A DNA stretch of 64,000 nucleotides from Parcubacteria group bacterium GW2011_GWA1_56_13 (GCA_001004905.1 LCRY01000003.1:24830-88829); one strand, 5' to 3'. Positions 9,941 through 34,534 are shown, numbered from the stretch's first letter. Notes: generated by a model from the letters alone, not told the origin. Numbers and translations are program-made.

Positions 9941-10055
9941 GCGCCTTCCCCTTATCTGTCGTGAATGGCCATCCGGTAAGGATGGATCAAATTTCCTGGG
10001 TTGAGTGTAGAATACTATCAATCACTTGTCAAGTGGCCGCCGCTCACCATACCGC

Positions 10056-10775: not shown

Positions 10776-10885
10776 GACGCCCAGTATAGCCCGGCGGTGT
10801 CCGACTTGTTGAGGACCTGTCTGCCTCGTGCGGCGGCTGTTGATAAGGGTTCGCCGTCCCCCCGACCCCCTGTAGAATTACCCCT

Positions 10886-14784: not shown

Positions 14785-14789
14785 ATTTA

Positions 14790-19422: not shown

Positions 19423-20435
19423 AATCCCGCCCCGCATTTGAAGAATTGATAGCGCGCGCCGGAGCGCGGATAGAACTTTCGGCTTCCGAGCGGGAGAAGA
19501 TGCGTTTCGTACTGCGCGAGTATGCGGCGTTCAGGCCGCGGAGGGCGGCACAAGCTCTCCCCGGCTACTGGGCGGCCATCACCGAACGTATCGAATACCT
19601 GGGCCGGCGCGTTCCGGCGTTCGCGCTCGGCGCGCTTGCGCTCATGCTTGTCTCCGGAGGCGTCGCGGCCGCCGCCGAAGGAACACTTCCCGGCGACCTC
19701 TTGTATCCGATCAAGGTCGCCATACTCGAACCGGCGCGGACATCTCTTACGTTCTCGGCGGCTGCGAAGGCCTCGTGGCAAAGGACACTCGCCGAACGTC
19801 GGCTCTCCGAAGCCGCCACGCTCGCCAAGCAGGGGGCCTTGAGCCCGAACATAGAACAAGTCCTCCTTGCGGGATTTGAACGCAGTGCCGGCGCGGCCGA
19901 CGCATCGCTTCGGGAAAGCGGGTACACCGCAAGCACGACCGATGTTTCCACGGCGGATTTCGCGGCACGCCTGTCGGCGTACGAGAGCATTTTCAGGGAG
20001 ATAGACACGACAGATGAGCGGAGCACGACCGGCGCTCTTGAGAGCGCCATACACGCGCAACTCGAACGCTCTGCGAGCACGACCGCCGCCCTCGAAGATG
20101 ATGCGAACGTCACGCATCTGAAAAAAGCGGCGGACGAAGCACTCGACGCGTCGGCGAATTTCCTCGGCTCAATAAACCGGTCGCTTACCGCCTCCACGTC
20201 GGCGCGCGCGCAAAAAGCGTTCGAAGACGCGCAGGAATTTGCGGCGCACGGGGACGAGCTCCTGAAGAAGAACGATGCAAAAGGGGCGTCGAAGGCATTT
20301 CGGACGTCGCTTGATGCGGCGGCGCGTCTCGAAGTGCTCACGCGCGCGGCCGCGACGCTCAATATAGACGCGTTCGCCGCGACGACGTCCCGCAGCGTTC
20401 CCCATACGGAAGATTCCGCATCGGAAGAGGACTAG
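19419..20435 (+). CDS. Putative anti-sigma factor-like membrane protein (DUF5667-like), 4-nt overlap with the sigma gene.
   Basis: ATGA start/stop overlap with the ECF sigma gene. Cytoplasmic N-terminus, a single TM helix (AFALGALALMLVSGGVAAAA), and a long alpha-helical extracytoplasmic domain. Confidence 0.5.
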   Translation: MKSRPAFEELIARAGARIELSASEREKMRFVLREYAAFRPRRAAQALPGYWAAITERIEYLGRRVPAFALGALALMLVSGGVAAAAEGTLPGDLLYPIKVAILEPARTSLTFSAAAKASWQRTLAERRLSEAATLAKQGALSPNIEQVLLAGFERSAGAADASLRESGYTASTTDVSTADFAARLSAYESIFREIDTTDERSTTGALESAIHAQLERSASTTAALEDDANVTHLKKAADEALDASANFLGSINRSLTASTSARAQKAFEDAQEFAAHGDELLKKNDAKGASKAFRTSLDAAARLEVLTRAAATLNIDAFAATTSRSVPHTEDSASEED

Positions 20436-21052
20436 TGTGCGAGGGCGAGCGGAAGGATATTGTTCGCGCCGGCCTCTCGAAGCGCGTCAATGGCGGCTTG
20501 AAGCGTCGCGCCGGTGGTAACGACGTCGTCGATGACGATGTAAAGGCGCGCGGGCGCGGCGGCGCCCGCGCGGAACGCCTCGCGCATATTTTCCTCCCGC
20601 GCGGCGCGTGGCAGCGATACCTGTGACGCCGTCTCGCGAACGCGCTCAAGAAGCGATGGAAGAACCGCGCCACCCCATTTTTCGCCGAGCTCCGCCATCG
20701 CGCCGTTCACTATTTCCTCCACCTGATTGAAGCCGCGCTCGAAACGCCGCTTTTTACCAAGCGGAACCGGCACGAGCGCGGGCCCCGCGCGTCCGTACGG
20801 CACATCGGCTTCCCGCACGTAGTCGGCGAGCGCGCTGGAGAGCAGACGCAATGCGCGCTCACTGCCGTGATACTTCGCCTCATGAATGACCGCCCGCACC
20901 CGTGCGTCGGAGAACGGGAAAAGCGCAACCGTGCCCGGGCGCGTCATCGGCACGAGGCGCGGCGAAAGAAGCGAGAAAAAAGCATCGTCGGAAAAGTCCC
21001 GGAGCGCGACCTCGTCCACACGCGGCGGGAACAGGAAGTCAAGAAAACGCAT
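20432..21052 (-). CDS. comFC: ComF family protein (ComFC-like phosphoribosyltransferase-domain competence protein).
   Basis: PRTase motif LYIVIDDVVTTGATL at the C-terminus; ComFC-like N-terminal region; 206 aa. Confidence 0.7.
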   Translation of the reverse strand: MRFLDFLFPPRVDEVALRDFSDDAFFSLLSPRLVPMTRPGTVALFPFSDARVRAVIHEAKYHGSERALRLLSSALADYVREADVPYGRAGPALVPVPLGKKRRFERGFNQVEEIVNGAMAELGEKWGGAVLPSLLERVRETASQVSLPRAAREENMREAFRAGAAAPARLYIVIDDVVTTGATLQAAIDALREAGANNILPLALAH

Positions 21053-21066
21053 GGTATCATTCTCTC

Positions 21067-22149
21067 ATGTCGCTCCTCGATTCTCTCTTCGGGAAGAAGG
21101 AAAAGAGCGTGCTGGGCGTGGATATTGGCTCCTCGTCGCTAAAAGTCGTGCAGCTGCGCAAGGAAAAAGGGAAGGCGGTGCTCGAAACATACGGCGAACT
21201 CGCACTCGGTCCGTACGGAGGAAGCGAGGTGGGGCAGGCGACGAACCTTTCCGCCGAACAGATCACCGAAACGCTGAAAGACCTTCTGCGCGAGGCGAAA
21301 GTAACGACGAAAAATTGCGCCGTCTCCATACCGTTCGCCCGGTCGCTCCTCACCCTCGTCGAATTGCCGTACCGCGCCGACCCGAAAGAACAAAAAACCG
21401 TCATCGAACTTGAAGCGCGCAAGTATATCCCGGTGCCCATGAGCGAAGTACAGCTCGATTGGTTCATCGTTCCAAGCGCGGGTTCGCCCACCGAGAAGGC
21501 GAGTGCTTCCGCGGGGAAAACCGTCGAGGTACTCCTCGTCGCGGTCCATAACGACGAGATATCCCTTCTGCAGAAAGTGATAGACGGCGCAGAACTCCAC
21601 TCCACGTTCTATGAAATAGAGATCTTCAGCACCATACGGGCGGTGGTAGACGAGCCGGTCAAACCGGTCATGGTCATCGACGTCGGGGCGGCTTCCACGA
21701 AGGCCTACGTCATCGAACACGGGGTCGTGGCACTCTCGCATTCGATAGCGACCGGAAGCCAGGACATCACGCGCGCCATCGCCATTTCCGGCAATTTCTC
21801 CATTGCACAGGCCGAGGCGCTGAAGAAGAAGGAGGGTCTCGCCGGGGACGACACGCTCGGCTCGCCGGAGCTTGTGTTCTCGCGCATTTTCTCGGAGGTG
21901 CGCCGCGTGCTCATACAGTATGAGACGGCGCATCAGAAATCGGTTACTTCCATCATATTCACCGGCGGCGGCGGGGTCACCAAGGAGCTCGGCATATACG
22001 CGAAAAAGACCTTCTCCATCGATGTGCGCATCGCGGACCCGTTCCTAAAGACGGAAGCGCCCGCGTTCATGCGGCCGGTGCTGGAGGGGATCGGCCCCGA
22101 ATTCGCGGTGGCCGTCGGTCTCGCGCTCCGCAAGCTCGGAGAAACGTAA
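21067..22149 (+). CDS. pilM: Type IV pilus assembly protein PilM (actin-like ATPase fold).
   Basis: VLGVDIGSSSLKVVQL...; 360 aa. Start refined to MSLLDSLFGKKEK at 21067. Confidence 0.85.
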   Translation: MSLLDSLFGKKEKSVLGVDIGSSSLKVVQLRKEKGKAVLETYGELALGPYGGSEVGQATNLSAEQITETLKDLLREAKVTTKNCAVSIPFARSLLTLVELPYRADPKEQKTVIELEARKYIPVPMSEVQLDWFIVPSAGSPTEKASASAGKTVEVLLVAVHNDEISLLQKVIDGAELHSTFYEIEIFSTIRAVVDEPVKPVMVIDVGAASTKAYVIEHGVVALSHSIATGSQDITRAIAISGNFSIAQAEALKKKEGLAGDDTLGSPELVFSRIFSEVRRVLIQYETAHQKSVTSIIFTGGGGVTKELGIYAKKTFSIDVRIADPFLKTEAPAFMRPVLEGIGPEFAVAVGLALRKLGET

Positions 22150-22212
22150 TCCTTCCACTTTTACACAGGCGTCGCACCCCTTCCTTGCGGAAGTGTCGTA
22201 TACTGAACGGAA

Positions 22213-22794
22213 ATGGCTCTTCCTCCGACCATACCGACGTCGTTCGTTCCCCATCCGACCGGAGCGGCTCCGCGCAGGTTCCGCGCAGACCTCACCGGCG
22301 CGTTCGATTTTTTCGCTTACGGCGTTCTCGGCTTCGTTTTCATACTCGCGCTCGGAGTTTTTCTCTACGGGCGCGTCCTTGCCGCGGATAAACTCGCAAA
22401 AGACGCGAAGGTCAGCGCCGCGTTGACATCGATAGACCTGGAGACGGTTGATGATTTCGTGCGGCTGCGCGACCGTTTGACGTCCGGCCAGGTCCTGCTT
22501 GAGAAGCACATGGCGTTCTCGACGCTCTTCGCGGCGCTCGAGAAGCTCCTGCCCGCCACCGTCCGTTTCACTTCGCTCCGCCTCTCGATCGACTCGAGCG
22601 GTGCCACAAGCATGGAGGGTTCCGGCGTTGCGAAAAGCTTCAATGCGCTTGCCGCCACCTCCGCCGCGTTCGCGCAGGATGGCCGCATCAAAGATGCCAT
22701 CTTTTCCAACATAACCGTCAACGCGAAGGACAGTTCCGTCAGCTTCACGCTTTCCGCCATGCTCGAGCCGGACATCACCGCCTTCACGCCATGA
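22213..22794 (+). CDS. pilN: PilN-like pilus assembly protein (bitopic).
   Basis: One N-terminal TM helix (FFAYGVLGFVFILALGVFLYG) and a periplasmic coiled-coil/ferredoxin-like domain. Position directly after pilM. Confidence 0.55.
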   Translation: MALPPTIPTSFVPHPTGAAPRRFRADLTGAFDFFAYGVLGFVFILALGVFLYGRVLAADKLAKDAKVSAALTSIDLETVDDFVRLRDRLTSGQVLLEKHMAFSTLFAALEKLLPATVRFTSLRLSIDSSGATSMEGSGVAKSFNALAATSAAFAQDGRIKDAIFSNITVNAKDSSVSFTLSAMLEPDITAFTP

Positions 22795-23354
22795 ACAGTC
22801 ACCTCCTCCCCATCCTCGCGCTCATGATCGCCGTCGGCATCTTCTTCGTCTACGTACATCCGACCTGGTCCGGTTCCATAGCGCTCACCAAGCAGGCCAT
22901 CGCGACCGACGTTCAGGCACTCGCCGCCGCGGACGAATACAAGGCGAACCAAAATGCGCTCGCCGCCGCGCGGGACGCCATTGATCCGGCGAATCTCGAG
23001 CGCCTGAAGATCTTTCTTCCCGATTCGGTGGATAATGTCGGGCTCATTCTCAACATCAATGCGCTTGCGGCGCGCTCGGGACTTTCTCTCTCGAACATTG
23101 ACGTCGCGAAAGGCAGTTCGATGGGCAACAGCGAGACATCCGGCGCGGCCGCCCTGCCGACCGACGAGGCGAACCCGGTCGGCTCGATCGATCTTTCGCT
23201 CTCCGCAGTCGGCTCCTACGCGGCGCTACAGGCATTTCTCGCCGGCCTCGAAAAAAGCGCCCGTCTCCTCGATATCCGCGACATCACGGTCAAAGGCTCC
23301 GACACGGGCGTCTACAACTACCAGATGACCGTACGCCTCTATTGGCTGCGCTAA
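22791..23354 (+). CDS. pilO: PilO-like pilus assembly protein (bitopic).
   Basis: N-terminal TM helix (LLPILALMIAVGIFFVYV) then a coiled-coil. 4-nt overlap with pilN. Confidence 0.5.
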   Translation: MNSHLLPILALMIAVGIFFVYVHPTWSGSIALTKQAIATDVQALAAADEYKANQNALAAARDAIDPANLERLKIFLPDSVDNVGLILNINALAARSGLSLSNIDVAKGSSMGNSETSGAAALPTDEANPVGSIDLSLSAVGSYAALQAFLAGLEKSARLLDIRDITVKGSDTGVYNYQMTVRLYWLR

Positions 23355-23364
23355 TGACATTACG

Positions 23365-23664
23365 ATGAAATCAAACACCATCACTCTCATCGTCCTGACA
23401 CTCCTTGCCGCCGCGGCCGCGTACTGGTTCTTCTTTTCCGGGTCCGGCAACGAACCGCCCCTGACGGTCGCAATCTCCACCGAGAGCGAGGCCCAGGCGC
23501 GATTTCAGGCGTTGGCGAGCGAACTCCAGCCCCTTACGTTCGATACGGGCATTTTCTCCGAAGCGCGTTTCTTGGCGCTCGTGGATATCACGACTCCCGT
23601 CACACCCGAAACGGCGGGGCGCCTTGATCCCTTTGCTCCCGTTCCCGGCGTCAGCGCAAAATGA
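23365..23664 (+). CDS. Small secreted/anchored protein, possibly PilP-like.
   Basis: 99 aa with an N-terminal hydrophobic segment; context between pilO and pilB only. Confidence 0.3.
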   Translation: MKSNTITLIVLTLLAAAAAYWFFFSGSGNEPPLTVAISTESEAQARFQALASELQPLTFDTGIFSEARFLALVDITTPVTPETAGRLDPFAPVPGVSAK

Positions 23665-23667
23665 GTA

Positions 23668-25446
23668 ATGAACCTTCTCGGACTACTCGTCGATAAAGGC
23701 CTTCTCCCAGTAAAGGAACGTGCCGCGGTCGAGGCGGAAGTCGCGAAGAACCGCCCGCTTGCCGACGTGCTCGCCGAACACAATGTGTCGCTCACGGACG
23801 CCCTTGCCGAAGCGGGGAAGGCGTACGGGCTTCCCGTCCGCACCCTCGGCGATCCGCCCGCCGATGAAGCCGTCTTCCAGTACATCCCGATCGACTCCGC
23901 GCGCCACTACGGATTCGTGCCGCTCGCCATGGCCGATGGAGCGCTTGAGATCGGCATAACCGACCCGGACAACATAGAGGCGCTCGACGCGCTCCAATTC
24001 ATCTCGGGGAAGATAGGCATTCCGTACAAGATATTCCTCATCACGGAACAGGATTTCGACCGCGTTATCGATACGTACCAGAACATCTCCGGGGAGATCG
24101 GCAGAGCGCTCTCCGAATACGATACGACCGCCAAGCCCCCGGTCGCGCAGGGCGCGCCGCCCTCTCCCGATGCGGGTGGGCCGCTCTCCGAGGAGGAGGC
24201 GCTGAACCTGGCCGGCTCACGCGAGAGCCTGAAGGAGGATGCGCCGGTGACGAAGATCGTTTCCACGATACTGCGCTACGCCATCGACGGACGCTCGTCC
24301 GACGTTCATATTGAGCCATCGCCGACGAAAACGCGCGTCCGCTTCCGTATGGACGGCGACCTGCACACATCACTTGAATTGCCGACGAAAGTGCACGAGG
24401 CGGTCGTCGCACGCATCAAGATCCTCGCGAAGCTGCGTCTCGATGAGAAGCGCAAGCCGCAGGACGGGCGCTTTTCGGCGACGGTGGAGAATCGGCGCAT
24501 CGATTTCCGCGTCTCGACATTCCCGACCGAATACGGCGAAAAGGTCGTGATGCGCATCCTCGACCGCTCCGATGCGACGGCGACGCTTACCTCGATCGGG
24601 TTGTCGAACACACAGCTCGCGGCGATCCGCGACATGATGAAAGTCCCGTACGGCATCATCCTCATCGCGGGACCGACCGGTTCGGGCAAGTCCACGACCC
24701 TCTTCGCCATGCTTTCCGAGACCGATCGCGAAACCGAAAACGTCGTATCGCTCGAAGATCCGGTCGAATACGAGATCCCGGGTGTCGCGCAGAGTCAGGT
24801 ACGGCCGGAGATCGACTACACATTCGCCAACGGACTCCGTTCCATCCTGCGGCAGGACCCGGACGTCATCATGGTCGGCGAGATACGCGACAAGGAGACG
24901 GCCGTGCTCGCGGTACAGGCCGCGCTCACCGGCCACCTCGTGTTTTCTACCATCCACACCAATACCGCGGTGGGAGCGATCCCGCGCCTCATTGACATGG
25001 GGGTTGACCCGTTCCTCATCGCGCCGACCCTCATCTCCGTCATCGGACAGCGCCTCGTGCGCAAGCTCTGTCCCGGCGCGGGAAAAGCGTTCCCGGCCAA
25101 GGACAGCATCAAAGTATTTTTGGAGCGGCAATTCGCCGATCTGCCATCCGAATACCGCAAGACGCTGCCCGTCTTTAAGGAGTTCTATCATGCGGCTCCG
25201 ACGGCCGAGTGTCCGAACGGCACGCGCGGTCGTACGGGCGTTTTCGAGATCTTGCGCATGAACAAAAGCCTCGAACAAGTCGTGCTTAAAGAACCGGTCG
25301 AGGAGAACATCTACGCCGCCGCCCGCGCGGGTGGCATGCTCACCATGCGCGAAGATGCGATCGTGAAAGCGCTTCGGGGTGAGATACCCTTCGAGGAGGT
25401 CAACACGCTCGGCGGGGAACTTTTCCCCGAAGGGGACGTCGCCTGA
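23668..25446 (+). CDS. pilB: Type IV pilus assembly ATPase PilB (GspE family).
   Basis: Walker A GPTGSGKST; Asp box; His box (VGEIRDKETAVLAVQAALTGHLVFSTIHTN); N-terminal GSPII domain. Confidence 0.9.
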   Translation: MNLLGLLVDKGLLPVKERAAVEAEVAKNRPLADVLAEHNVSLTDALAEAGKAYGLPVRTLGDPPADEAVFQYIPIDSARHYGFVPLAMADGALEIGITDPDNIEALDALQFISGKIGIPYKIFLITEQDFDRVIDTYQNISGEIGRALSEYDTTAKPPVAQGAPPSPDAGGPLSEEEALNLAGSRESLKEDAPVTKIVSTILRYAIDGRSSDVHIEPSPTKTRVRFRMDGDLHTSLELPTKVHEAVVARIKILAKLRLDEKRKPQDGRFSATVENRRIDFRVSTFPTEYGEKVVMRILDRSDATATLTSIGLSNTQLAAIRDMMKVPYGIILIAGPTGSGKSTTLFAMLSETDRETENVVSLEDPVEYEIPGVAQSQVRPEIDYTFANGLRSILRQDPDVIMVGEIRDKETAVLAVQAALTGHLVFSTIHTNTAVGAIPRLIDMGVDPFLIAPTLISVIGQRLVRKLCPGAGKAFPAKDSIKVFLERQFADLPSEYRKTLPVFKEFYHAAPTAECPNGTRGRTGVFEILRMNKSLEQVVLKEPVEENIYAAARAGGMLTMREDAIVKALRGEIPFEEVNTLGGELFPEGDVA

Positions 25447-25558
25447 CCCCGTGAGATACATAATCCCGATTTTTCATCGAATCCCCGTTATTGTCTTTTC
25501 CCCATGTGGGCGCCGCACGCGGTAACGCAAAGGTATCTCACGAGGTATACTTTTTACG

Positions 25559-25969
25559 ATGGCTTACCGCGTCTATCTCGTTGATGATGACCGATTCTTA
25601 CTCGACCTGTACGCGATCAAATTCCGCGATGCCGGTCATGAGGTAGCCGTATTCAGCGGCGGCGAGGACCTTCTTGCCGCGCTCCGAAAGGAAAGCGCGC
25701 CGGTTCCCGACGTCATTCTGCTTGACCTCATCATGCCGGGGATAAGCGGTTTTGAAACACTTGAAACGATACGGAAGGAGCGTCTCGCGAAGGGTACGAA
25801 GATAGTCATTCTTTCCAATCAGGGCCAGGACTCCGATATCGAGAAAGCGAAACAGCTTCAGGCCGACGGCTACATCATCAAGGCGTCCGCGATCCCTTCC
25901 GAAGTATTTGCCGAGACCCTGCGCACTATCGAGGGAGGTCGTTCCGCCGCTACCGGGGGAATATCATGA
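25559..25969 (+). CDS. Single-domain response regulator (CheY/PilH-like) embedded between pilB and pilT.
   Basis: VYLVDDD...DVILLDLIMPGISGFETL...KIVILSNQ...ADGYIIK. Overlaps the pilT start by 4 nt. Confidence 0.8.
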   Translation: MAYRVYLVDDDRFLLDLYAIKFRDAGHEVAVFSGGEDLLAALRKESAPVPDVILLDLIMPGISGFETLETIRKERLAKGTKIVILSNQGQDSDIEKAKQLQADGYIIKASAIPSEVFAETLRTIEGGRSAATGGIS

Positions 25970-27027
25970 TCGCCGATAAGCGCCTCGGAGAACTTCTGGA
26001 TATCGTCGTCAAAGAAGGCGCTTCCGATGTTCATATTTCCGCCGCCGGTCCGCCGGTCCTGCGCGTGGCGGGCACGCTCATTCCCGTCGCGAAACATCCG
26101 GCGTTTTCGAACGAGGACACCGAAGCGATGCTGAAAAGCATCGTCCCCGAAGAGCGCTGGAATTCGTTCCGGGCGAACCAGACCATTGACCTGTCCTATG
26201 CGCATAAAGCGGATGCGCGCTTCCGCGTTAACGGTTACCGCGCGCAGGGGTCGGTCTCGCTCTCGCTCCGGCTCATCCCGCATGCGATCCAGACGTTCAC
26301 CGAACTGAACCTTCCTCCCGTGCTTGAGGTATTCACCCAACGCGAACAGGGGTTCTTCCTCTGCGTGGGGCCGGTGGGGCAGGGCAAATCCACGACGCTC
26401 GCCGCCATGATCAACCGCATCAACGACTCGCGGGCAGAGCACATCCTCACTATCGAGGATCCGATAGAATATCTCTTTCCGCAGAAGAAATCCCTTATCC
26501 ACCAACGCGAAGTCCACATCGACACGCCCGATTTCCATACTGCGCTCCAAAGCGCGTTCCGCGAAGACGTCGATGTCATCATGGTCGGCGAGATGCGTGA
26601 TTACGAGACCATTTCTTCGGCGGTAACCGCCGCCGAGACCGGTCACCTCGTCTTCTCGACGCTTCACACAAATAACGCCGCGCAGACCATCGACCGCATC
26701 ATTGACATGTTCCCCGCCGAACAGCAAGGTCAGGTGCGCGTACAGCTCGCCGGCTCCCTGGTCGGCATCTTCTCCCAGCGGCTCATCCCGCGCGTCTCGG
26801 GCGGACTCATTCCCGCGTATGAGCTTCTGATCAACAACAATGCGGTCGGCACCTTGATACGCGACGCACGTACGCACGAGATCAGTGCCATCGTCCAAAC
26901 CTCGTCGGAGGAGGGCATGATCGACATGGACCGTTCGCTCGCCGACCTCGTACACCGAGGGGAAGTGACGGTCGAGCACGCCTACGAGCATTCGATGGAT
27001 CCGAAGACCTTCGAGCGCTATCTCTAA
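25966..27027 (+). CDS. pilT: Twitching-motility / pilus retraction ATPase PilT.
   Basis: GPVGQGKSTT Walker A; Asp and His boxes (IMVGEMRDYETISSAVTAAETGHLVFSTLHTN); 353 aa. Confidence 0.9.
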   Translation: MIADKRLGELLDIVVKEGASDVHISAAGPPVLRVAGTLIPVAKHPAFSNEDTEAMLKSIVPEERWNSFRANQTIDLSYAHKADARFRVNGYRAQGSVSLSLRLIPHAIQTFTELNLPPVLEVFTQREQGFFLCVGPVGQGKSTTLAAMINRINDSRAEHILTIEDPIEYLFPQKKSLIHQREVHIDTPDFHTALQSAFREDVDVIMVGEMRDYETISSAVTAAETGHLVFSTLHTNNAAQTIDRIIDMFPAEQQGQVRVQLAGSLVGIFSQRLIPRVSGGLIPAYELLINNNAVGTLIRDARTHEISAIVQTSSEEGMIDMDRSLADLVHRGEVTVEHAYEHSMDPKTFERYL

Positions 27028-27029
27028 AT

Positions 27030-28235
27030 ATGTTATTTAAATACCACGCGATCGACCAAGACGGGCACGAAAGGGACGGGACCATCGAAGCCCCCTCGCA
27101 GGAGGTCGCCGTATCCGCGCTCCAACGCCGCAGTCTGATCATCTCGAAAATTGAATCCGCTGAAAAAACGTCGCTCCTTGAATCCAACTTGTCGTTCTTC
27201 GACCGGGTGAGCAACAAGGACGTTGTCATTCTTTCGCGACAGATAGCGACTCTTTTTGAAGCGCAGGTGCCCGCGCTCCGTGTCTTCCGCCTTCTCGCGA
27301 GCGAGGTCGATAACAAAAAGCTCGCCACCGTCCTCTCGCAGGTCGGAGATGACCTCCAGGGAGGAAGTCCCATCAGCAAGGCGCTCTCGCGCCACCCCAC
27401 GATTTTTACCGTGTTCTATGTGAACATGGTGCGGGCCGGGGAAGAGTCGGGGAGATTGTCGGAGACATTCGTCTATCTCGCCGATTATCTCGACCGCTCC
27501 TATGACATTTTGAGCAAAGCCGAGAACGCGCTCATCTACCCGATGTTCGTCATCGCCACATTCTTCGGCGTTATGGCGCTCATGCTTACGCTGGTTATCC
27601 CGAAGATCAGCGCCATTCTCGTTGACTCCGGTCAGGCGGTGCCGATCTACACCAAAATCGTCATCGGTTTCTCCAACCTGCTCGTCAATTACGGCGTCTT
27701 CCTTCTCATCGCGCTTGTGGCCGGCGGCTTTTATCTCCGACAGCTCGGGAAGACCGAACGCGGGAAACTGATCATGGACAGTTTAAAACTCTCGATCCCC
27801 TATGTCGGCGACCTCTATAAAAAACTCTATCTCGCTCGCATGGCGGACAATCTCTCCACCATGCTCCTGTCCGGCATCCCGGTCGTCGAGGCCATCGATA
27901 TCACGGGTTCGGTCGTCGGCAATGCCGCATACGAGATGGTGCTTACCGAGACGGGCAAGGATGTCAAAGGCGGTTCCTCCATCTCGGGCGCTCTTGGGAA
28001 ACACCCGGAGATACCGGGAATCATGGTCGCGATGACGAAGGTGGGCGAGGAATCGGGCGAGCTCGGCAAGATACTCACGACGCTCGCGAAGTTCTACAGC
28101 CGCGAGGTGACGAACGCCGTAGACACGCTGGTCGGGCTCATAGAGCCGATCATGATCGTCCTCCTCGGTCTCGGTGTCGGCACGCTTCTCGCCGCCGTCC
28201 TCCTGCCTATCTATAATCTTGCGGGCTCCATATAA
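27030..28235 (+). CDS. pilC: Type IV pilus inner-membrane platform protein PilC (GspF family).
   Basis: Two tandem GspF repeats, each with a cytoplasmic domain and TM helices; 401 aa. Confidence 0.85.
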   Translation: MLFKYHAIDQDGHERDGTIEAPSQEVAVSALQRRSLIISKIESAEKTSLLESNLSFFDRVSNKDVVILSRQIATLFEAQVPALRVFRLLASEVDNKKLATVLSQVGDDLQGGSPISKALSRHPTIFTVFYVNMVRAGEESGRLSETFVYLADYLDRSYDILSKAENALIYPMFVIATFFGVMALMLTLVIPKISAILVDSGQAVPIYTKIVIGFSNLLVNYGVFLLIALVAGGFYLRQLGKTERGKLIMDSLKLSIPYVGDLYKKLYLARMADNLSTMLLSGIPVVEAIDITGSVVGNAAYEMVLTETGKDVKGGSSISGALGKHPEIPGIMVAMTKVGEESGELGKILTTLAKFYSREVTNAVDTLVGLIEPIMIVLLGLGVGTLLAAVLLPIYNLAGSI

Positions 28236-28311
28236 GGGACTATCCACACCTTGCTTCCTTAGGGAGCGCTCTAGGCGCTATAATCCAGCTATTAGCCGCA
28301 TACAACATACC

Positions 28312-28773
28312 ATGTACAAAAATCGTTCCCAGGCCCTCATCCTGAGCTCGTCGCGGGGCTTCACCCTTATCGAATTGCTCGTCGTCATCGCAATCATCGG
28401 CATACTTTCGGCGGTCGTGCTCGCGTCTCTCAACACCGCTCGCTCAAAGGGCAACGATGCCGCCATCCAGTCGGATCTTTCAACCATCCAGACGCAGGCG
28501 GAGATCTTCTACGGCGGCGCTGGCGGCAACACCTACACGGGGGTCTGTGCGGAATCGACCGTTGCAAAGGCGATCGCGGCCGCCGAAGTCGCGAACGGCA
28601 GCGGCACCGTCGTATGCAACGTGGCCGCCAACGGCACCGCGTATGCGGTCTCGTCGGGCCTGCAGGCGGGCATAACGATAGGGGGCGCAACCAACATGTA
28701 CTGGTGCGTGGATAGCACGGGTAATGCGAAGTCCCACGCTTCGGCGCTTGGAGCGGCGACGGCTTGTCCGTAA
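28312..28773 (+). CDS. pilA: Type IV pilin (major pilin candidate).
   Basis: Leader MYKNRSQALILSSSRG|FTLIELLVVIAIIGILSAVVLASLNTAR. Start refined to ATG 28312. Confidence 0.8.
   Translation: MYKNRSQALILSSSRGFTLIELLVVIAIIGILSAVVLASLNTARSKGNDAAIQSDLSTIQTQAEIFYGGAGGNTYTGVCAESTVAKAIAAAEVANGSGTVVCNVAANGTAYAVSSGLQAGITIGGATNMYWCVDSTGNAKSHASALGAATACP
28356..28453 (+). repeat. About 95-bp identical DNA segment shared by the two tandem pilin genes (copy 1).
   Basis: cttcacccttatcgaattgctcgtcgtcatcgcaatcatcggcatactttcggcggtcgtgctcgcgtctctcaacaccgctcgctcaaaggg is identical to 28895-28992. Confidence 0.85.
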
Positions 28774-28796
28774 TCTACGTCTCACACCGGAGAATT

Positions 28797-29330
28797 ATGA
28801 AAAGATATAACAAACTCGCGTGGCACGGACGCGGTGCCTATAACCTCTTCGAGGTTCGGGCGTCCGAAGCGTCCATAAGACATGGCTTCGGTGCGGGCTT
28901 CACCCTTATCGAATTGCTCGTCGTCATCGCAATCATCGGCATACTTTCGGCGGTCGTGCTCGCGTCTCTCAACACCGCTCGCTCAAAGGGTCAGGATGCG
29001 GCGATACAGTCCGACCTGGACGGTGTCCGGACACAAGCCCAACTCTACTTCAGCGACAACGGAAATGCCTACGGTACGAACATCGCGGTTGAGAGCGACT
29101 GTGCGGCGACCGACAATCTCTTCAGCGATCCCACTATCGCGAACCAGGTCAGTGCGGCCGATGCGGCAAACGGGAATACGCTCGGTATCACCTGCAACGT
29201 GAGCGCTGGCGGTACCGCCTACGCAGTATCCGCAGCGCTTGTCGCGAGCGCAGGCTCCTACTACTGCATTGATAGTACGGGCGTCGGCACCACCACTACG
29301 ACCGCGCTTGGCACGAACACGAGCTGCTAG
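28797..29330 (+). CDS. Type IV pilin paralog with an unusually long leader.
   Basis: ...HGFGAG|FTLIELLVVIAIIGILSAVVLASLNTARSKGQD. A 35-aa leader if it starts at ATG 28797; the C-terminal region diverges from pilin 1. Confidence 0.7.
   Translation: MKRYNKLAWHGRGAYNLFEVRASEASIRHGFGAGFTLIELLVVIAIIGILSAVVLASLNTARSKGQDAAIQSDLDGVRTQAQLYFSDNGNAYGTNIAVESDCAATDNLFSDPTIANQVSAADAANGNTLGITCNVSAGGTAYAVSAALVASAGSYYCIDSTGVGTTTTTALGTNTSC
28895..28992 (+). repeat. About 95-bp identical DNA segment shared by the two tandem pilin genes (copy 2).
   Basis: Identical to 28356-28453. Confidence 0.85.
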
Positions 29331-29414
29331 CAGGATTCTTCTCCGAAAGCGGCCTCGTTGAGAACGGCGTAGCCGTCATCTCGCGAGGCCGCTTCGCGTT
29401 ATACTGAAAACCGC

Positions 29415-30176
29415 ATGCAATTCCTCCTCGCTTTTTCGTTTTTTGCGCTCGGCGCGATCGTCGCAAGTTTTGTCGGCGTGCTTGTCGAACGGCTTTATAC
29501 GGGACAAGGATTCCTGTCGGGACGCTCCCGCTGCAACGCGTGCAACACGCCACTTACGCCCCTCGCGCTCGTGCCGGTCATTTCCTACGTCGCGCTTCAA
29601 GGAAGGGCGCACTGCTGCGGTGCCCGCCTCCCGCTGCGCGCCCCTCTGACCGAAGCCCTGCTCGGCGTTCTTTTCGTCGGTGCATATGCGGATCTCGGCC
29701 TTTCGTTCGCGCTTCTCTATTTCCTTATCTCCCTTTCAGCGCTGCTCGGCCTCGTGCTGTATGACCTCTCTCATCAAATATTGCCGCCCTCGCTTCTCAT
29801 AATTTTTATCGCGGCGAGTGTCGCGATGCGCTACGCCCTTTCGCCTTCGCTCGCGACCTTTTCCTCCTCCTGCATCACTGCCGCGCTGATCGCGCTTGCA
29901 CTCGCGCTCATACATTTCTTTTCACGCGGACGCGCCATGGGCTTTGCGGACGCGCCGCTCGCCTTCGGTCTCGCGCTTCTCGCCGGCCCGACCGCGCTCA
30001 CCGGCTTTGTTTTTTCATTCTGGATCGGCGCCGGTATCGGGATAGGTCTGTTGTTCACCAGGCCTCGTGGCTCTAGAATGGGAGTTGAGGTGCCGTTCGC
30101 TCCTTTCTTGGCCGCCGGCTTCCTTCTCGCTTACTTCACCCAATGGAACCTTTTCGCTTTCATCGCGATTCCGTAA
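29415..30176 (+). CDS. pilD: Prepilin peptidase PilD (A24 family) with an N-terminal zinc-binding CxxC...CxxC.
   Basis: RCNACNT...HCCGARL tetracysteine, plus the polytopic peptidase A24 core (LGLVLYDLSHQILP...). Confidence 0.85.
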   Translation: MQFLLAFSFFALGAIVASFVGVLVERLYTGQGFLSGRSRCNACNTPLTPLALVPVISYVALQGRAHCCGARLPLRAPLTEALLGVLFVGAYADLGLSFALLYFLISLSALLGLVLYDLSHQILPPSLLIIFIAASVAMRYALSPSLATFSSSCITAALIALALALIHFFSRGRAMGFADAPLAFGLALLAGPTALTGFVFSFWIGAGIGIGLLFTRPRGSRMGVEVPFAPFLAAGFLLAYFTQWNLFAFIAIP

Positions 30177-30910
30177 CAGCCGGAGGGTTCACCCCGTTAG
30201 ATAACGGTCCGGAAAGGGCGATACATATTCAGTGTCCACACTATCTAACGGGGTTCACGCTCGTGGAGCTCATGGTCGTGATTTCCATTATGGCGGTCAT
30301 TACGGCGATCGTGCTCACGAGCCAAAGTTCTTTCAACAAGACGCTCGTACTCGCGAATACCGCATATGACATCGCGCTCTCGCTCCGGTCCGCCGAAACG
30401 TACGGTATCGGCAGCCGCGCGATAACGGGCGGCGCGGTGAATGCCGGATACGGCATTCATTTTGAGAGGGGAAATACGGGTTCCTACGTACTGTTCGCCG
30501 ATATCTCTCCCGGTCCAGCGGCTTCAGGCTGCCACGGATTACCCGCCGGAGGCGCGACTGCTCCGGATGCGCAACCGGGGAATTGCGTATATACAAGCGG
30601 ATCGGACGCGTTGGTACGGACCTATATGCTCGGGAACGGCATAACCATAAAAGATTTTTGCGCATATTCCTCCGGTGCCTGGTCGTGCATGAGGGGGGGG
30701 CTGTCTTCGCTTGATATCGTGTTTGCGCGCCCGAATCCGGATCCTTTCATGAGCAAAGACGGTGCATATTCCCGGCCGTTCCCCGTTACCGCAGCATGCC
30801 TCACCGTCGCCTCCCCGGGCGCGCCCGACGGACCGTTCCGTTTCATTTCCATCGCGCAATCGGGGGCAATCACCGCCAACGCCGCCTCGGACCCTTCCTC
30901 ATGTCATTAA
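30143..30910 (+). CDS. Minor pilin / pseudopilin (FimT/GspH-like).
   Basis: Prepilin motif TG|FTLVELMVVISIMAVITAIVLTS. Start uncertain: the only in-frame ATG gives a 34-aa leader and a 34-nt overlap with pilD. Confidence 0.55.
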   Translation: MEPFRFHRDSVTAGGFTPLDNGPERAIHIQCPHYLTGFTLVELMVVISIMAVITAIVLTSQSSFNKTLVLANTAYDIALSLRSAETYGIGSRAITGGAVNAGYGIHFERGNTGSYVLFADISPGPAASGCHGLPAGGATAPDAQPGNCVYTSGSDALVRTYMLGNGITIKDFCAYSSGAWSCMRGGLSSLDIVFARPNPDPFMSKDGAYSRPFPVTAACLTVASPGAPDGPFRFISIAQSGAITANAASDPSSCH

Positions 30911-30987
30911 CCACCATGAACTACCATCGAGGATACACCCAGCACCAAAGCTTCGTTAAGAATGTTGGTGGCGTTCGAACGACAAAA

Positions 30988-31488
30988 ATGCTGTCAAGGC
31001 GTGGCTTTGGTGCTGGGTACACGCTCATCGAACTTGTCGTAGCGGTCGGGCTTTTTGCCCTCATCATGACGCTCGCTTCGGGAGCGTACCTCGTAATGAT
31101 AGGGGTCAATCAGCAATCCCAGGGCATCGCGACCGGCATCAATAATCTCTCCTTCGCGCTTGAGACCATGACACGCGCCATCCGCACGGGAACGAATTAT
31201 TCCTGCGGCGGCGGGGACTGCACCGGCGGCACGAACTTCTCGGTCCTGAACGCAAGCGGCGCAACGATGACCTATCTCCTTTCCGGAGGCGTGATAACCC
31301 AAAATGGCGTCGCACTCACCGATTCGTCGGTGCAAATTTCATCGCTCAAATTTTACGCATCGGGTACGGCGGGAAGCGATTCTCAACAGCCCCGCGTCAC
31401 CATTGTTGTGTCCGGCACGGTCCCCGGGAAAGCCCCCCAGCAATTTACCGTCGAGACCGGCGCGACGATGCGCGGCTCCGACATATGA
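30988..31488 (+). CDS. Minor pilin.
   Basis: MLSRRGFGAG|YTLIELVVAVGLFALIMTLASGAY. Start refined to ATG 30988; the ORF is open from 30796. Confidence 0.6.
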   Translation: MLSRRGFGAGYTLIELVVAVGLFALIMTLASGAYLVMIGVNQQSQGIATGINNLSFALETMTRAIRTGTNYSCGGGDCTGGTNFSVLNASGATMTYLLSGGVITQNGVALTDSSVQISSLKFYASGTAGSDSQQPRVTIVVSGTVPGKAPQQFTVETGATMRGSDI

Positions 31489-32048
31489 CCATGAAAATGT
31501 CCACGGGCTTCACCCTTATAGAAACGATGGTCGCCGTGACTATTATTACGCTTGCGGTTGCAGGACCTCTCTTTGCGGCGAACCGCGCGTTCGTTGCCGC
31601 GCGCATCGCCCGCGATCAGCTGACCGCATCGCACCTCGCGCAAGAAGGCATCGAATACGTGCGCGCGATGCGCGATAACGAATATCTCGCCGCATATCGG
31701 GCGGGCGGTCCGAACATCTCGAGTACGGCATGGGATAATTTTATCGCGGGCATAGAGTCCGTCTGCCTCAGTCCATCGCGCTGCACGCTTGACCCGGTGC
31801 TGCGCGCGATGGGATACGGCGCGGGTTTCGCGGTCGCACCGTACTCAGGCAATGCGCCACTGTATCTGGCGAACGGTCTGTATACGCAACAGAACCTTGC
31901 GGGCGGTGTACGAACGGTCTTCACCCGAACCATTGAGGTCTCCCGCGTATCGGCCAGCGACGAGCGTATCGTTTCGATGACGTCGTGGAACTATCACGGC
32001 ACCGCATATTCGGTGACGACGACTGCTCACCTTTCCCCATGGCAATGA
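31485..32048 (+). CDS. Minor pilin (PilV/GspI-like).
   Basis: MTMKMSTG|FTLIETMVAVTIITLAVAGPLFAANRAF. 4-nt overlap with the upstream gene. Confidence 0.6.
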   Translation: MTMKMSTGFTLIETMVAVTIITLAVAGPLFAANRAFVAARIARDQLTASHLAQEGIEYVRAMRDNEYLAAYRAGGPNISSTAWDNFIAGIESVCLSPSRCTLDPVLRAMGYGAGFAVAPYSGNAPLYLANGLYTQQNLAGGVRTVFTRTIEVSRVSASDERIVSMTSWNYHGTAYSVTTTAHLSPWQ

Positions 32049-32527
32049 AACAGACACGCCGCGGATTCGCGCTCCTCATCGCCGTCATATTCATGTCGGT
32101 CATGCTCGCGTTCGGCCTCGCACTCGGTTCGCTTGCGTATAAGCAGCAAGTCCTCGCGTCCACGGCCATCCAGTCGCAGTACGCATTCTACGCTGCGGAT
32201 GCTGGCCTCGAATGCGCTCTCTACGCCGATCAGCAGCAGGGACTCTTTGCCTATACGTCCGACATGTCCGCACCCGCCCCGTCCCTGGTCTGCGACGGCG
32301 CTTCGGCCATCTCGGCAAGCGTCCTTTCGCACACAGGGTCGCAGTGGGTCATTTTCAATCGCCTCTCCCTCGATACGAACAAACGATGCGTGGATGTGAC
32401 CGTCTATAAACGGAAAAACACGGGGACGAACTATCTCTTTTCGCAGGGATATGACGTGTCGTGCGCTACCGTCGCCGCCCCGAATGGAGCGCATTTCGTG
32501 TCGCGCGGCCTCAGTGCAGACTACTGA
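32039..32527 (+). CDS. Minor pilin (PilX/GspK-like).
   Basis: MAMKQTRRG|FALLIAVIFMSVMLAFGLALG. Start refined to ATG 32039. Confidence 0.55.
   Translation: MAMKQTRRGFALLIAVIFMSVMLAFGLALGSLAYKQQVLASTAIQSQYAFYAADAGLECALYADQQQGLFAYTSDMSAPAPSLVCDGASAISASVLSHTGSQWVIFNRLSLDTNKRCVDVTVYKRKNTGTNYLFSQGYDVSCATVAAPNGAHFVSRGLSADY

Positions 32528-34534
<2,007 letters not shown>

What the first reader, a model, noticed from the sequence alone, without database searches (positions are those of the whole stretch)
20432..32527. Complete secretin-less type IV pilus / competence locus with an embedded CheY-like regulator and an adjacent ECF sigma / anti-sigma pair
Gene order is comFC(-), then pilM, pilN, pilO, small ORF, pilB, a receiver-only response regulator, pilT, pilC, two pilins, pilD and four minor pilins. 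No pilQ secretin is present anywhere in the window. This fits a monoderm or CPR-type DNA-uptake/adhesion pilus. The single-domain receiver lies between the extension ATPase pilB and the retraction ATPase pilT, overlapping pilT by 4 nt, and has a paralog at 10886-11272 next to a GAF-PAS histidine kinase. That placement suggests phospho-control of extension versus retraction. Immediately upstream at 18877-20435 is an ECF sigma gene translationally coupled (ATGA overlap) to a membrane anti-sigma-like protein, which could couple envelope signals to competence. Several minor pilins have unusually long leaders (34-35 aa).
Basis: partly seen in the sequence, partly recalled or inferred. Interest (0 to 1): 0.6.

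Follow-up and report, generated by a model that had tools for sequence, protein, structure and literature searches.

The report
CPR pilus locus with embedded receiver
This is the standard secretin-less type IV pilus gene cluster of a groundwater Candidatus Kaiserbacteria (CPR) bacterium; its one apparently undescribed feature is a phosphorylatable CheY-like receiver gene kept between the extension and retraction motor genes across this bacterial group.

Summary
Window 20432-32527 encodes ComF(-), PilM, PilN, PilO, a 99-aa membrane protein, PilB, a receiver-only response regulator (REC), PilT, PilC, two PilA paralogs, PilD and four minor pilins. No secretin is present in the window.

The source is a groundwater Candidatus Kaiserbacteria (Patescibacteria/CPR). 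Secretin-less, co-localised pilus genes are already published for CPR (PMC6744442), so the core locus is known.

The REC is the part worth attention.
- It lies between pilB and pilT in 19 of 29 Patescibacteria loci found through PilT, and in none of 17 non-CPR pilB-pilT pairs.
- In the reverse test, 77 of the 80 closest metagenomic REC relatives sit in that same slot.
- All five phospho-chemistry residues are conserved in 91-92 of 92 members.
- No histidine kinase lies in any related Patescibacteria locus.
- A conserved TATACT box 7 nt before its ATG makes it the first gene of a REC-pilT-pilC unit.

The most likely role is phospho-dependent control of the pilus motors by an unlinked kinase. 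That role is inferred, not shown.

The proposed ECF sigma link has no synteny or motif support. The long pilin leaders are specific to this window. Overall this is a known kind of system with one conserved, unannotated regulatory variant, of moderate interest.

The parts
18877..19422 (+). ECF-type sigma factor. The ORF opens at 18745; the probable start is GTG 18877. It is a neighbour, not shown to belong to the pilus system.
   Evidence: Sigma70_r2, r4_2 and ECF hits. TIGR02937 89.8 bits, above the 42.9 cutoff. Not syntenic with the pilus locus in relatives.
19419..20435 (+). DUF5667 membrane protein with anti-sigma-like topology. Its ATG overlaps the sigma stop codon (ATGA).
   Evidence: PF18915 E=3e-12. 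ATGA read at 19419-19422. One hydrophobic segment read in the translation.
20432..21052 (-). ComF-family phosphoribosyltransferase-like protein, divergent from pilM. The two start codons are 14 nt apart.
   Evidence: TIGR00201 E=2.4e-21, 76.6 bits, below the trusted cutoff. Divergent comF-pilM pairing is seen in many Patescibacteria loci. Sequence read.
21067..22149 (+). PilM, the actin-like cytoplasmic platform protein. TATCAT lies 6 nt upstream of the ATG.
   Evidence: PF11104 E=7e-40. TIGR01175 156 bits, above the 133 cutoff. Start context.
22199..22204 (+). TATACT -10 box, 8 nt before the pilN ATG. Predicted promoter of pilN-pilO-small ORF-pilB.
   Evidence: Conserved upstream of pilN in L081, L082, L002, L003 and L008.
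22213..22794 (+). PilN
   Evidence: PF05137 25.1 bits, above GA 22.8.
22791..23354 (+). PilO (GspM-like). It overlaps pilN by ATGA.
   Evidence: PF04350 24 bits, above GA 22, and PF10741 27.2 bits. Junction read.
23365..23664 (+). Conserved 99-aa bitopic membrane protein with a C-terminal GRxNPFxP motif, sitting in the gene slot that PilP/HofP occupies elsewhere.
   Evidence: A small ORF in this slot was recovered by iterative search (jackhmmer, inclusion E 0.01) in 23 of the 24 Patescibacteria loci that hold the region upstream of pilB. P89 and F90 are invariant. No Pfam or PDB hit. E. coli HofP has MRDPFKPP directly after its N-terminal hydrophobic segment.
23668..25446 (+). PilB extension ATPase (MshEN plus T2SSE)
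   Evidence: PF00437 E=2e-116 and PF05157 E=1e-16. TIGR02538 469 bits, below the equivalog cutoff.
25546..25551 (+). TATACT -10 box, 7 nt before the REC ATG. Predicted leaderless or short-leader promoter of REC-pilT-pilC.
   Evidence: TATACT or TATAAT is conserved in that position in L001, L002, L003, L008 and L081-L083. It is absent before pilB, pilT and pilC.
25559..25969 (+). Stand-alone receiver (CheY-like) response regulator, specific to the pilB-pilT slot of Patescibacteria.
   Evidence: PF00072 E=4e-21. Present in 19 of 29 Patescibacteria loci. 77 of 80 of its closest metagenome relatives lie between pilB and pilT. D10, D11, D56, S/T86 and K108 are conserved in 91-92 of 92 members.
25966..27027 (+). 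PilT retraction ATPase. Its start overlaps the REC stop by 4 nt.
   Evidence: TIGR01420 423.6 bits, above the 319 cutoff. Junction read.
27030..28235 (+). PilC platform protein
   Evidence: PF00482 E=2e-53, two repeats. GspF and PilC models hit.
28240..28276 (+). pilA1 promoter region: a conserved TATCCACA (DnaA-box-like) element and a TATAAT box at 28271, followed by a leader of about 35 nt.
   Evidence: (alignment with six relatives).
28312..28773 (+). PilA1 major-type pilin, 16-aa leader, cleavage G|FTLIELL
   Evidence: N_methyl E=7e-9. TIGR02532 hit. Starts examined.
28797..29330 (+). PilA2, a tandem pilin paralog. The leader is 34 aa if ATG 28797 is used; there is no closer canonical start.
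   Evidence: N_methyl E=2e-6..
29400..29405 (+). TATACT -10 box, 9 nt before the pilD ATG. Predicted promoter of pilD and the minor pilins (and possibly ligA).
   Evidence: TATACT or TATGAT is conserved there in L001, L081, L082, L008 and L005.
29415..30176 (+). PilD prepilin peptidase
   Evidence: PF06750 E=2e-21 and PF01478 E=7e-7.
30143..30910 (+). Minor pilin 1 (weakly GspH-like), 37-aa leader, G|FTLVELM
   Evidence: N_methyl 23.1 bits, above GA. TIGR01708 E=5e-7 over the N-terminus only..
30988..31488 (+). Minor pilin 2 (weakly GspJ-like), 10-aa leader from ATG 30988, G|YTLIELV
   Evidence: N_methyl 18.7 bits, below GA. TIGR01711 E=5e-4. Starts.
31485..32048 (+). Minor pilin 3 (weakly PilV/GspI-like), 8-aa leader, G|FTLIETM
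   Evidence: N_methyl 25.1 bits. TIGR02523 E=8e-5.
32039..32527 (+). Minor pilin 4 (PilX/GspK-like, lacking Glu5), about 9-aa leader, G|FALLIAV
   Evidence: PilX_N 17.5 bits, below GA. Orthologs occupy the same slot in relatives. Sequence read.
32534..34534 (+). NAD-dependent DNA ligase LigA, 6 nt after the last minor pilin. This is a conserved downstream neighbour.
   Evidence: Pfam hits. ligA follows the pilin genes in 15 genome loci, L001 to L034.
10886..11272 (+). Second stand-alone receiver, a generic relative that lacks the pilus-REC signature residues.
   Evidence: PF00072 E=1e-22. 30% identity to the pilus REC.
11853..13553 (-). GAF-PAS-HisKA-HATPase histidine kinase, the only kinase in the window and a candidate phosphodonor.
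   Evidence: Pfam hits. No homolog in any Patescibacteria pilus locus.

Best explanation
Shown: the region is the conserved type IVa-like pilus gene cluster of a groundwater Candidatus Kaiserbacteria (Patescibacteria/CPR) cell.

Inferred from the known roles of these families:
- PilM, PilN, PilO and a small GRxNPF membrane protein form the membrane alignment complex around the PilC platform.
- PilB polymerises the pilus from PilD-processed PilA1/PilA2, primed by a four-member minor-pilin tip set.
- PilT retracts the pilus.
- No secretin is needed because there is no outer membrane.

Shown: a stand-alone receiver is a lineage-specific, vertically kept component. It is encoded between pilB and pilT and is translationally coupled to pilT. 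Its position as first gene of a REC-pilT-pilC transcription unit is predicted from a conserved -10 box.

Inferred: the receiver is phosphorylated on Asp56 by a kinase encoded elsewhere. The candidate in this window is the GAF-PAS kinase at 11853-13553. In one phosphorylation state the receiver binds a motor ATPase, most likely PilT and alternatively PilB, and shifts the balance between extension and retraction. The pilus serves host-cell attachment, twitching and/or DNA capture.
For: Family assignments.

Taxon and habitat.

Locus architecture: it is shared by genome loci L001-L034 and metagenome loci L081-L160.

REC linkage:
- 19 of 29 Patescibacteria loci have the REC between pilB and pilT, against 0 of 17 non-CPR pilB-pilT pairs.
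- 77 of the 80 nearest REC relatives sit in the slot.
- REC-negative loci are scattered single tips inside the REC-positive PilT clade, which fits an old gain followed by losses.

REC chemistry: D10 is conserved in 91/92, D11, D56, S/T86 and K108 in 92/92, and the Tyr105 switch residue in 86/92. Family-specific F13, Y18, N87 and P113 are invariant or nearly so.

Expression: the REC stop overlaps the pilT start by 4 nt. TATACT-N7-ATG is conserved before the REC in relatives but is absent before pilB, pilT and pilC.

Precedent: the single-domain regulator EmvR binds PilB and represses its ATPase, and it takes input from a kinase that also serves another regulator (PMC11973254). A tandem-receiver regulator, DrdR, is reported to modulate swarming by controlling PilB/PilT activity in Xanthomonas campestris (PMC13507683, title as listed). 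PilG and PilH are discussed in PMC11656802.

Secretin: CPR pilus clusters are reported to lack PilQ (PMC6744442).
Against: - No interaction, phosphotransfer or phenotype data exist for any member of this REC family.
- No kinase is linked to the REC in any of the Patescibacteria loci or in the three out-of-context relatives, so the phosphodonor is a guess.
- No PilT or PilB alignment column separates REC-positive from REC-negative loci. The target is therefore not identified by sequence.
- About a third of related loci work without the REC, so it is dispensable for pilus assembly.
- Absence of a secretin was tested only in this 64-kb window.
- The small protein has no HMM or PDB support for any known family.
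Confidence: 0.6

Rival explanations
1. The receiver is a phosphate sink or side branch of a two-component pathway. It modulates phosphate flux from the lone kinase to the other receiver (10886-11272), does not touch the pilus motors, and sits in the locus only for co-expression.
For: PilH of the Pil-Chp system is discussed as a possible phosphate sink (PMC11656802). The window holds two receiver-only proteins, one kinase and no DNA-binding regulator. No REC-correlated residues were found in PilB or PilT.
Against: A sink has no reason to be held in the pilB-pilT slot in 77 of 80 relatives and translationally coupled to pilT. The family has invariant non-catalytic residues (F13, Y18, N87, P113), which suggests a conserved partner surface.
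Confidence: 0.18
2. The receiver is a phosphorylation-independent structural cofactor of the motor or platform, comparable to the degenerate REC domain of FimX, used for localisation or assembly.
For: [quoted passage not shown] No kinase is linked to the REC in any locus.
Against: All five phospho-chemistry residues are conserved in 91-92 of 92 members across 25-79% overall identity. That pattern is expected only if phosphorylation is used.
Confidence: 0.08
3. One reading: the adjacent ECF sigma / anti-sigma pair senses envelope stress and drives transcription of comF and the pilus operons.
For: The pair ends where the comF coding region ends: its stop codon at 20433-20435 lies within the 3' end of convergent comF at 20432. 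It is a bona fide ECF sigma with a translationally coupled membrane protein.
Against: The pair is not adjacent to the locus in relatives. ECF-type -35/-10 motifs are at chance level, and none lies upstream of pilM, comF, pilN, REC or pilD. Those genes instead carry housekeeping-like TATACT boxes. The pair is convergent with comF, not upstream of it.
Confidence: 0.07
4. The cluster is primarily a DNA-uptake (competence) pilus rather than an attachment or motility pilus.
For: A divergent ComF-family gene and a downstream ligA are conserved neighbours. CPR pili are proposed to work with ComEC in DNA uptake (PMC6744442; PMC11809585).
Against: No ComEC, ComEA or DprA is in the window. In cultured Saccharibacteria, pili are reported to drive host binding and twitching (PMC11623550; PMC9894109). 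The two functions are not exclusive.
Confidence: 0.35

Closest known systems
CPR/Patescibacteria type IV pilus clusters (Meheust et al. 2019, PMC6744442; Nanosynbacter lyticus TM7x T4P locus 1, PMC11623550)
   Same: PilB, PilT, PilC, PilM, PilN, PilO, PilD and several pilins are co-localised. No PilQ is present. There is a link to competence genes.
   Different: Neither paper mentions a response regulator in the cluster; text searches for 'response regulator', 'CheY' and 'receiver' returned nothing. Here a receiver lies between pilB and pilT and is conserved in many Parcubacteria/Paceibacterota-type loci.
PilG/PilH of the Pseudomonas aeruginosa Pil-Chp system
   Same: They are stand-alone CheY-like receivers that control type IV pilus extension and retraction behaviour.
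   Different: They are fed by the CheA-type kinase ChpA and the PilJ chemoreceptor, and they are encoded in the pilGHIJK-chpA cluster. No CheA, CheW or MCP is in this window, the only kinase is a HisKA type, and no PilG/PilH-specific model matches.
EmvR of Xanthomonas oryzae (PMC11973254) and DrdR of X. campestris (PMC13507683)
   Same: They are orphan receiver-only regulators. EmvR binds PilB and represses its ATPase, and it is phosphorylated by a kinase that also serves another regulator ('one-to-two').
   Different: They come from diderm proteobacteria and are not encoded between pilB and pilT. No sequence relationship beyond the REC superfamily was tested.
PilP / HofP of secretin-containing systems
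   Same: The window's 99-aa protein occupies the gene slot after pilO. It is membrane-anchored with an outside-facing tail and carries an R-x-(D/N)-P-F-x-P motif like the MRDPFKPP of E. coli HofP. [quoted passage not shown]
   Different: It has no beta-domain, which is the PilQ-binding part. The motif is C-terminal rather than N-terminal. There is no HMM or PDB similarity. The resemblance rests on a 5-6 residue motif and one verified comparator.

Membership tests
Type IVa-like pilus machinery | Extension ATPase PilB (T2SSE with an N-terminal MshEN/T2SSE_N domain) | tested here: met
   PF00437 E=2e-116 and PF05157 E=1e-16.
Type IVa-like pilus machinery | Dedicated retraction ATPase PilT | tested here: met
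   TIGR01420 423.6 bits, above the 319.1 cutoff.
Type IVa-like pilus machinery | PilC platform, PilM/PilN/PilO alignment proteins and PilD peptidase | tested here: met
   All pass their Pfam gathering scores, PilN and PilO only narrowly. PilM also passes TIGR01175.
Type IVa-like pilus machinery | Pilins with a class III signal (G|F/Y-x-x-x-E) and a set of minor pilins | tested here: met
   N_methyl hits for five of six. Cleavage motifs read directly. The sixth lacks Glu5, as in PilX/GspK-type proteins.
Type IVa-like pilus machinery | Outer-membrane secretin PilQ (diderm systems only) | tested here: not met
   No secretin among the ORFs scanned in the window. The whole genome was not testable. 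CPR are reported to lack PilQ (PMC6744442).
Receiver (REC/CheY-like) superfamily, phosphorylatable | Acidic pocket DD, phospho-acceptor Asp, Ser/Thr and Lys | tested here: met
   D10, D11, D56, S86 and K108 in the window protein. Conserved in 91-92 of 92 orthologs.
PilG/PilH (Pil-Chp) regulators | Encoded with, and fed by, a CheA-type kinase ChpA plus a PilJ/CheW module | tested here: not met
   No CheA, CheW or MCP domains in the window. tblastn with the window's HisKA-type kinase found no homolog in any related Patescibacteria locus; a CheA-type query was not run. The best NCBIfam hits are generic and all below cutoffs.
ECF sigma / anti-sigma control of the pilus locus | Conserved adjacency, or an ECF-type promoter upstream of the pil genes | tested here: not met
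   No conserved adjacency. Motif count is at chance and none is upstream of the pil genes.
ComF (ComFC) family | PRTase-like domain with ComF signature; N-terminal Cys4 zinc finger | tested here: inconclusive
   TIGR00201 E=2.4e-21 but only 76.6 bits against a 233.6 cutoff, covering model positions 45-189. No Cys residues in the N-terminal 50 residues.
PilP/HofP | Lipoprotein or anchored protein with a PilNO-binding unstructured region and a C-terminal beta-domain that binds PilQ | tested here: not met
   No PilP or HofP HMM hit at E<=5 in 19 members. The protein is too short for a beta-domain. Only the RxPF-type motif and the gene slot are shared.

The most novel reading that the evidence does not exclude
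The pilB-REC-pilT arrangement defines a Patescibacteria-specific phospho-switch. An orphan receiver, made in fixed ratio with PilT, would be the main device by which these ultra-small episymbionts decide between pilus extension and retraction, and hence host capture or DNA uptake, in response to a single unlinked sensor kinase. In parallel, the small GRxNPF protein would be a minimal PilP that kept the PilNO-binding peptide and lost the secretin-binding domain.
Probability: 0.35. Interest if true: 0.6.

Novelty: new variant of a known kind. Interest (0 to 1): 0.4.

Why it matters
Type IV pili are thought to be central to how CPR bacteria find and hold their hosts and take up DNA. How these tiny cells, which have few signalling proteins, regulate the pilus is unknown.

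This work identifies a receiver with three relevant properties. It is almost always encoded between the two pilus motors. It keeps perfect phospho-acceptor chemistry. It is annotated only generically in public databases. That makes it a concrete and cheap target for biochemistry: purified REC, PilB, PilT and the candidate kinase. It also supplies a marker for comparative genomics of pilus control in Patescibacteria.

The core locus itself adds nothing new beyond another example.

Tried and rejected
- The generic sigma-70 promoter and intrinsic terminator scan of 18-35 kb showed no enrichment: 5 sites against 5.1 expected, and 17 against 17.4.
- The ECF-type motif scan was at chance level.
- Rfam found only five tRNAs and no riboswitch in the locus.
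- The small ORF had no family in Pfam at E<=5 over 19 members, and only transmembrane-driven noise against PDB sequences.
- A search for the RxNPF motif in small ORFs of the non-CPR loci gave nothing useful, because those loci lack pilMNO.
- The attempt to find the REC's target by contrasting PilT and PilB columns between REC-positive and REC-negative loci gave no discriminating column.
- No kinase lies near the REC in any related Patescibacteria locus, nor next to the three out-of-context relatives, which neighbour restriction-modification genes, a protease, or pilin plus ligA.
It was not pursued, because the fold is not in doubt.
- Text searches of the literature found no description of a receiver in CPR pilus loci. 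This is absence in the held library only.
- The 287-aa plus-strand ORF 10026-10889 upstream of the second receiver was rejected as spurious. The opposite strand encodes a His_Phos_1 protein.

Full report
**Observation.**
- ComF-family gene, 20432-21052, minus strand.
- PilM. The ORF opens at 20902. The real start is probably ATG 21067, because the PilM_2 match begins at ORF residue 72.
- PilN, 22213-22794, and PilO, 22791-23354.
- A 99-aa ORF, 23365-23664.
- PilB, 23668-25446.
- A receiver-only response regulator (REC), 25559-25969.
- PilT, 25966-27027, and PilC, 27030-28235.
- Two tandem PilA paralogs, then PilD, 29415-30176.
- Four minor pilins, ending at 32527. LigA starts 6 nt later.

PilN and PilO pass their Pfam gathering scores only narrowly. 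Two of the four minor pilins fall below the N_methyl threshold, but they show the class III cleavage motif on direct reading and have orthologs in the same slots in relatives. The REC stop and the pilT start share ATGA. The sigma and DUF5667 genes share ATGA at 19419-19422. Public gene calls on contigs that carry the identical REC protein give the same protein lengths.

**Origin.** PilT is 85% identical to that of a Candidatus Kaiserbacteria groundwater MAG, and the next 30 or so hits are Patescibacteria. The identical REC protein occurs on 13 contigs. Those shown come from groundwater metagenome assemblies and from NCBI MAG GCA_003531405.1.

**Secretin.** Pfam hits were found for 32 ORFs outside the locus and none is a secretin. 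These include all non-spurious ORFs of about 280 aa or more. The rest of the genome could not be searched. Meheust et al. 2019 reported that CPR pilus components co-localise and that PilQ is not found (PMC6744442). A secretin-less pilus cluster in a CPR genome is thus already known.

**Synteny.** tblastn of the window's proteins against 80 genome loci found through PilT shows a shared order in Patescibacteria loci L001-L034. The order is comF(-) | pilM pilN pilO small-ORF pilB [REC] pilT pilC pilA(1-4 copies) pilD minor pilins ligA. The 80 metagenome loci found through the REC show the same. The divergent comF and the downstream ligA are conserved neighbours. The ECF sigma / DUF5667 pair is not conserved. 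L002 has 4.5 kb upstream of comF with no sigma. L008 has only a 31%-identical sigma hit 3 kb away on the other strand.

**The receiver: linkage.** Among Patescibacteria loci holding both ATPase genes, 19 of 29 have a receiver gene between pilB and pilT. In nine, pilB abuts pilT, and one has a pilin-like ORF in the gap. None of 17 non-CPR pilB-pilT pairs has a receiver there.

The reverse test used an alignment of 17 such receivers to scan metagenome contigs. Of the 80 best relatives (36-82% identity), 77 are flanked by pilB upstream and/or pilT downstream, as far as contig length allows. The three exceptions lie next to restriction-modification genes, a protease, or a pilin plus ligA. A neighbour-joining tree of PilT places the REC-negative loci as scattered single tips within the REC-positive Patescibacteria clade. 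This fits an old acquisition followed by repeated loss, but the tree is rough.

**The receiver: chemistry.** In 92 members (25-79% identical to the window protein), the acidic pocket (D10 91/92, D11 92/92), the phospho-acceptor D56 (92/92), S/T86 (92/92) and K108 (92/92) are conserved. So is the aromatic switch residue Y105 (86/92). Family-specific F13, Y18, N87 and P113 are invariant or nearly so. The second receiver in the window (10886-11272) is only 30% identical and lacks those signature residues.

**The receiver: annotation.** No equivalog model matches the REC, and the nearest solved structures are generic receivers. A database search found 1951 clusters at E<=1e-20. The best 120 are all single-domain proteins of 129-146 aa, named only 'response regulator', 'CheY-like' or 'hypothetical', from Kaiserbacteria, Wildermuthbacteria, Minisyncoccota and Parcubacteria.

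**The receiver: kinase.** No histidine kinase is encoded in any of the Patescibacteria loci. The only kinase in the window is the GAF-PAS-HisKA kinase at 11853-13553. It lies 12 kb away, convergent with a DUF1097 gene that follows the second receiver.

**Transcription signals.** The generic promoter and terminator scan is at chance. However, the hexamer TATACT occurs 15 times in the window on both strands. In at least eight cases it lies 7-12 nt upstream of an ATG that opens a substantial ORF. Six of these have family support: pilN 22213, REC 25559, pilD 29415, a His_Phos_1 gene at 10775(-), Ham1 at 39894 and a TrmB-like gene at 42071. Two more open ORFs without a family hit, at 38677 and 62992(-). 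The box (TATACT, TATAAT or TATGAT) is conserved before pilN, REC and pilD in the close relatives, but is absent before pilB, pilT and pilC. This suggests leaderless or very short-leader transcripts and the following units:
- pilM
- pilN-pilO-small ORF-pilB
- REC-pilT-pilC
- pilA1, with its own TATAAT and a leader of about 35 nt
- pilA2
- pilD and the minor pilins, possibly including ligA

These units are inferred from sequence. They were not mapped experimentally.

**ECF idea.** GGAAC-N15-18-CGTC occurs 6 times against 4.1 expected, and none lies upstream of pilM or comF. The comF and pilM start codons are only 14 nt apart. Taken with the lack of synteny, nothing ties the sigma pair to the pilus.

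**Leaders.** In close relatives, leaders are 7-9 aa for the PilA-type pilins (for example MYKNRSRG|F) and 9-23 aa for minor pilin 1. In the window the values are as follows.
- PilA1: 16 aa.
- PilA2: 34 aa from its only nearby canonical start, ATG 28797.
- Minor pilin 1: 37 aa from its only start.
- Minor pilin 2: 10 aa from ATG 30988. It reaches 34 aa only if an upstream ATG is chosen.
- The last two minor pilins: 8-9 aa.

A promoter-like TATAAC at 28838 lies downstream of ATG 28797, so the real PilA2 start is uncertain. The long leaders are window-specific and unexplained.

**Small ORF.** An iterative search found a bitopic protein of 92-155 aa between pilO and pilB in 23 of the 24 Patescibacteria loci that hold the region upstream of pilB. 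Its only invariant part is a C-terminal G-R-x-(N/D)-P-F motif. It has no Pfam or PDB match. E. coli HofP, the PilP-slot protein of hofMNOPQ, carries MRDPFKPP directly after its N-terminal hydrophobic segment. [quoted passage not shown] A minimal PilP that lost the secretin-binding domain is an attractive reading. It rests on a short motif and a single comparator, so it is a lead and not a finding.

**Mechanism.** The identity and completeness of the pilus machine are shown, as are the specific conserved linkage of the REC to the motor genes and its intact phospho-chemistry. The rest is inferred: that the REC is phosphorylated by an unlinked kinase, and that it acts directly on PilT or PilB. 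Its coupling to pilT and its position at the head of the pilT-pilC unit favour PilT or the platform as the partner.

Precedents exist. EmvR binds PilB and represses its ATPase, and it shares a kinase with another regulator (PMC11973254). DrdR is a tandem-receiver regulator reported to act through PilB/PilT activity (PMC13507683). PilG and PilH are reviewed in PMC11656802.

Contrasting PilT and PilB sequences from REC-positive and REC-negative loci gave no discriminating column, so the target remains open. The rival readings are a phosphate sink, a phosphorylation-independent cofactor, and ECF control. They are less consistent with the positional conservation, with the conserved catalytic residues, and with the synteny and motif data, respectively.

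**Comparison and novelty.** The locus is an ordinary member of the CPR pilus clusters described by Meheust et al. and studied in Saccharibacteria (PMC11623550, PMC9894109). Those papers, and the others searched, do not mention a regulator inside the cluster. The REC is not a PilG/PilH-type member, because no CheA-type module is present. It works, at most, like EmvR or PilG/PilH.

I rate the whole as a new variant of a known kind. A specialist would find the core unsurprising. The conserved orphan receiver is a useful and testable handle on pilus regulation in CPR bacteria.

Noticed in passing
window 22199, 25546, 29400, 38664, 39876, 42058 (+); 10788, 63007 (-): TATACT lies 7-12 nt before the ATG of an ORF in at least 8 of its 15 occurrences. 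Six of those ORFs have family support and two have none. This suggests that leaderless or very short-leader mRNAs are common in this Kaiserbacteria genome. It also corrects several ORF starts, for example Ham1 at 39894 and the TrmB-like gene at 42071.
   Followed up: partly
window 23365-23664; alignment A1 (L001-L034): A small bitopic protein with an invariant C-terminal GRxNPF motif lies between pilO and pilB in nearly all Patescibacteria loci. The motif resembles MRDPFKPP of E. coli HofP. It may be a minimal PilP without the secretin-binding domain.
   Followed up: partly
window 28240-28248; L001, L002, L003, L008, L081, L082 upstream of pilA: A conserved TATCCACA element, one mismatch from the DnaA-box consensus TTATCCACA, lies about 29 nt upstream of the pilA -10 box in the window and six relatives. 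Matches with at most one mismatch occur 14 times in the window against 6.4 expected, and 0 of 100 shuffles reach 14.
   Followed up: partly
window 32534-34534 and the matching positions in L001, L003, L006-L008, L011, L018, L020, L021, L024, L026, L029, L031, L033, L034: The NAD-dependent DNA ligase gene follows the last minor pilin gene in many Patescibacteria loci, with a 6-nt gap in the window, so it is probably co-transcribed. Whether this is functional (DNA uptake) or just frozen synteny is unknown.
   Followed up: no
window 28312-28360, 28797-28898, 30143-30253: The leader peptides of PilA1, PilA2 and minor pilin 1 carry insertions relative to close relatives (16, 34 and 37 aa against 7-9 aa, or 9-23 aa for minor pilin 1). 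A promoter-like TATAAC at 28838 lies downstream of the only canonical PilA2 start, so PilA2 may use a non-canonical start or may be decaying.
   Followed up: partly
window 14001-16000, 40001-42000, 60001-64000: G+C drops to 0.42, 0.49 and 0.50-0.52 against a background of about 0.59. The first island holds purD and a tRNA-Ser. The last holds three tRNA genes and an ORF with a recombinase zinc-ribbon domain (63130-63948) that overlaps tRNA-Thr, so it may be an integrated element.
   Followed up: no
L081 about 6465-6500; L002 about 11060-11085 (pilT-pilC intergenic): Two close relatives carry tandem AAATATTT repeats between pilT and pilC, where the window has only a 2-nt gap.
   Followed up: no
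window 10026-10889 (+) versus 10056-10775 (-): The long plus-strand ORF upstream of the second receiver is spurious. The minus strand encodes a His_Phos_1 phosphatase-family protein with its own TATACT-N7-ATG, divergent from the receiver gene.
   Followed up: yes
window 23668-25446 (PilB C-terminal region): On reading, PilB keeps only two Cys residues (LCPGAG and ECPNG) where many PilB/GspE ATPases have a CxxC...CxxC zinc site. The comparison with other PilB/GspE proteins is from memory.
   Followed up: no
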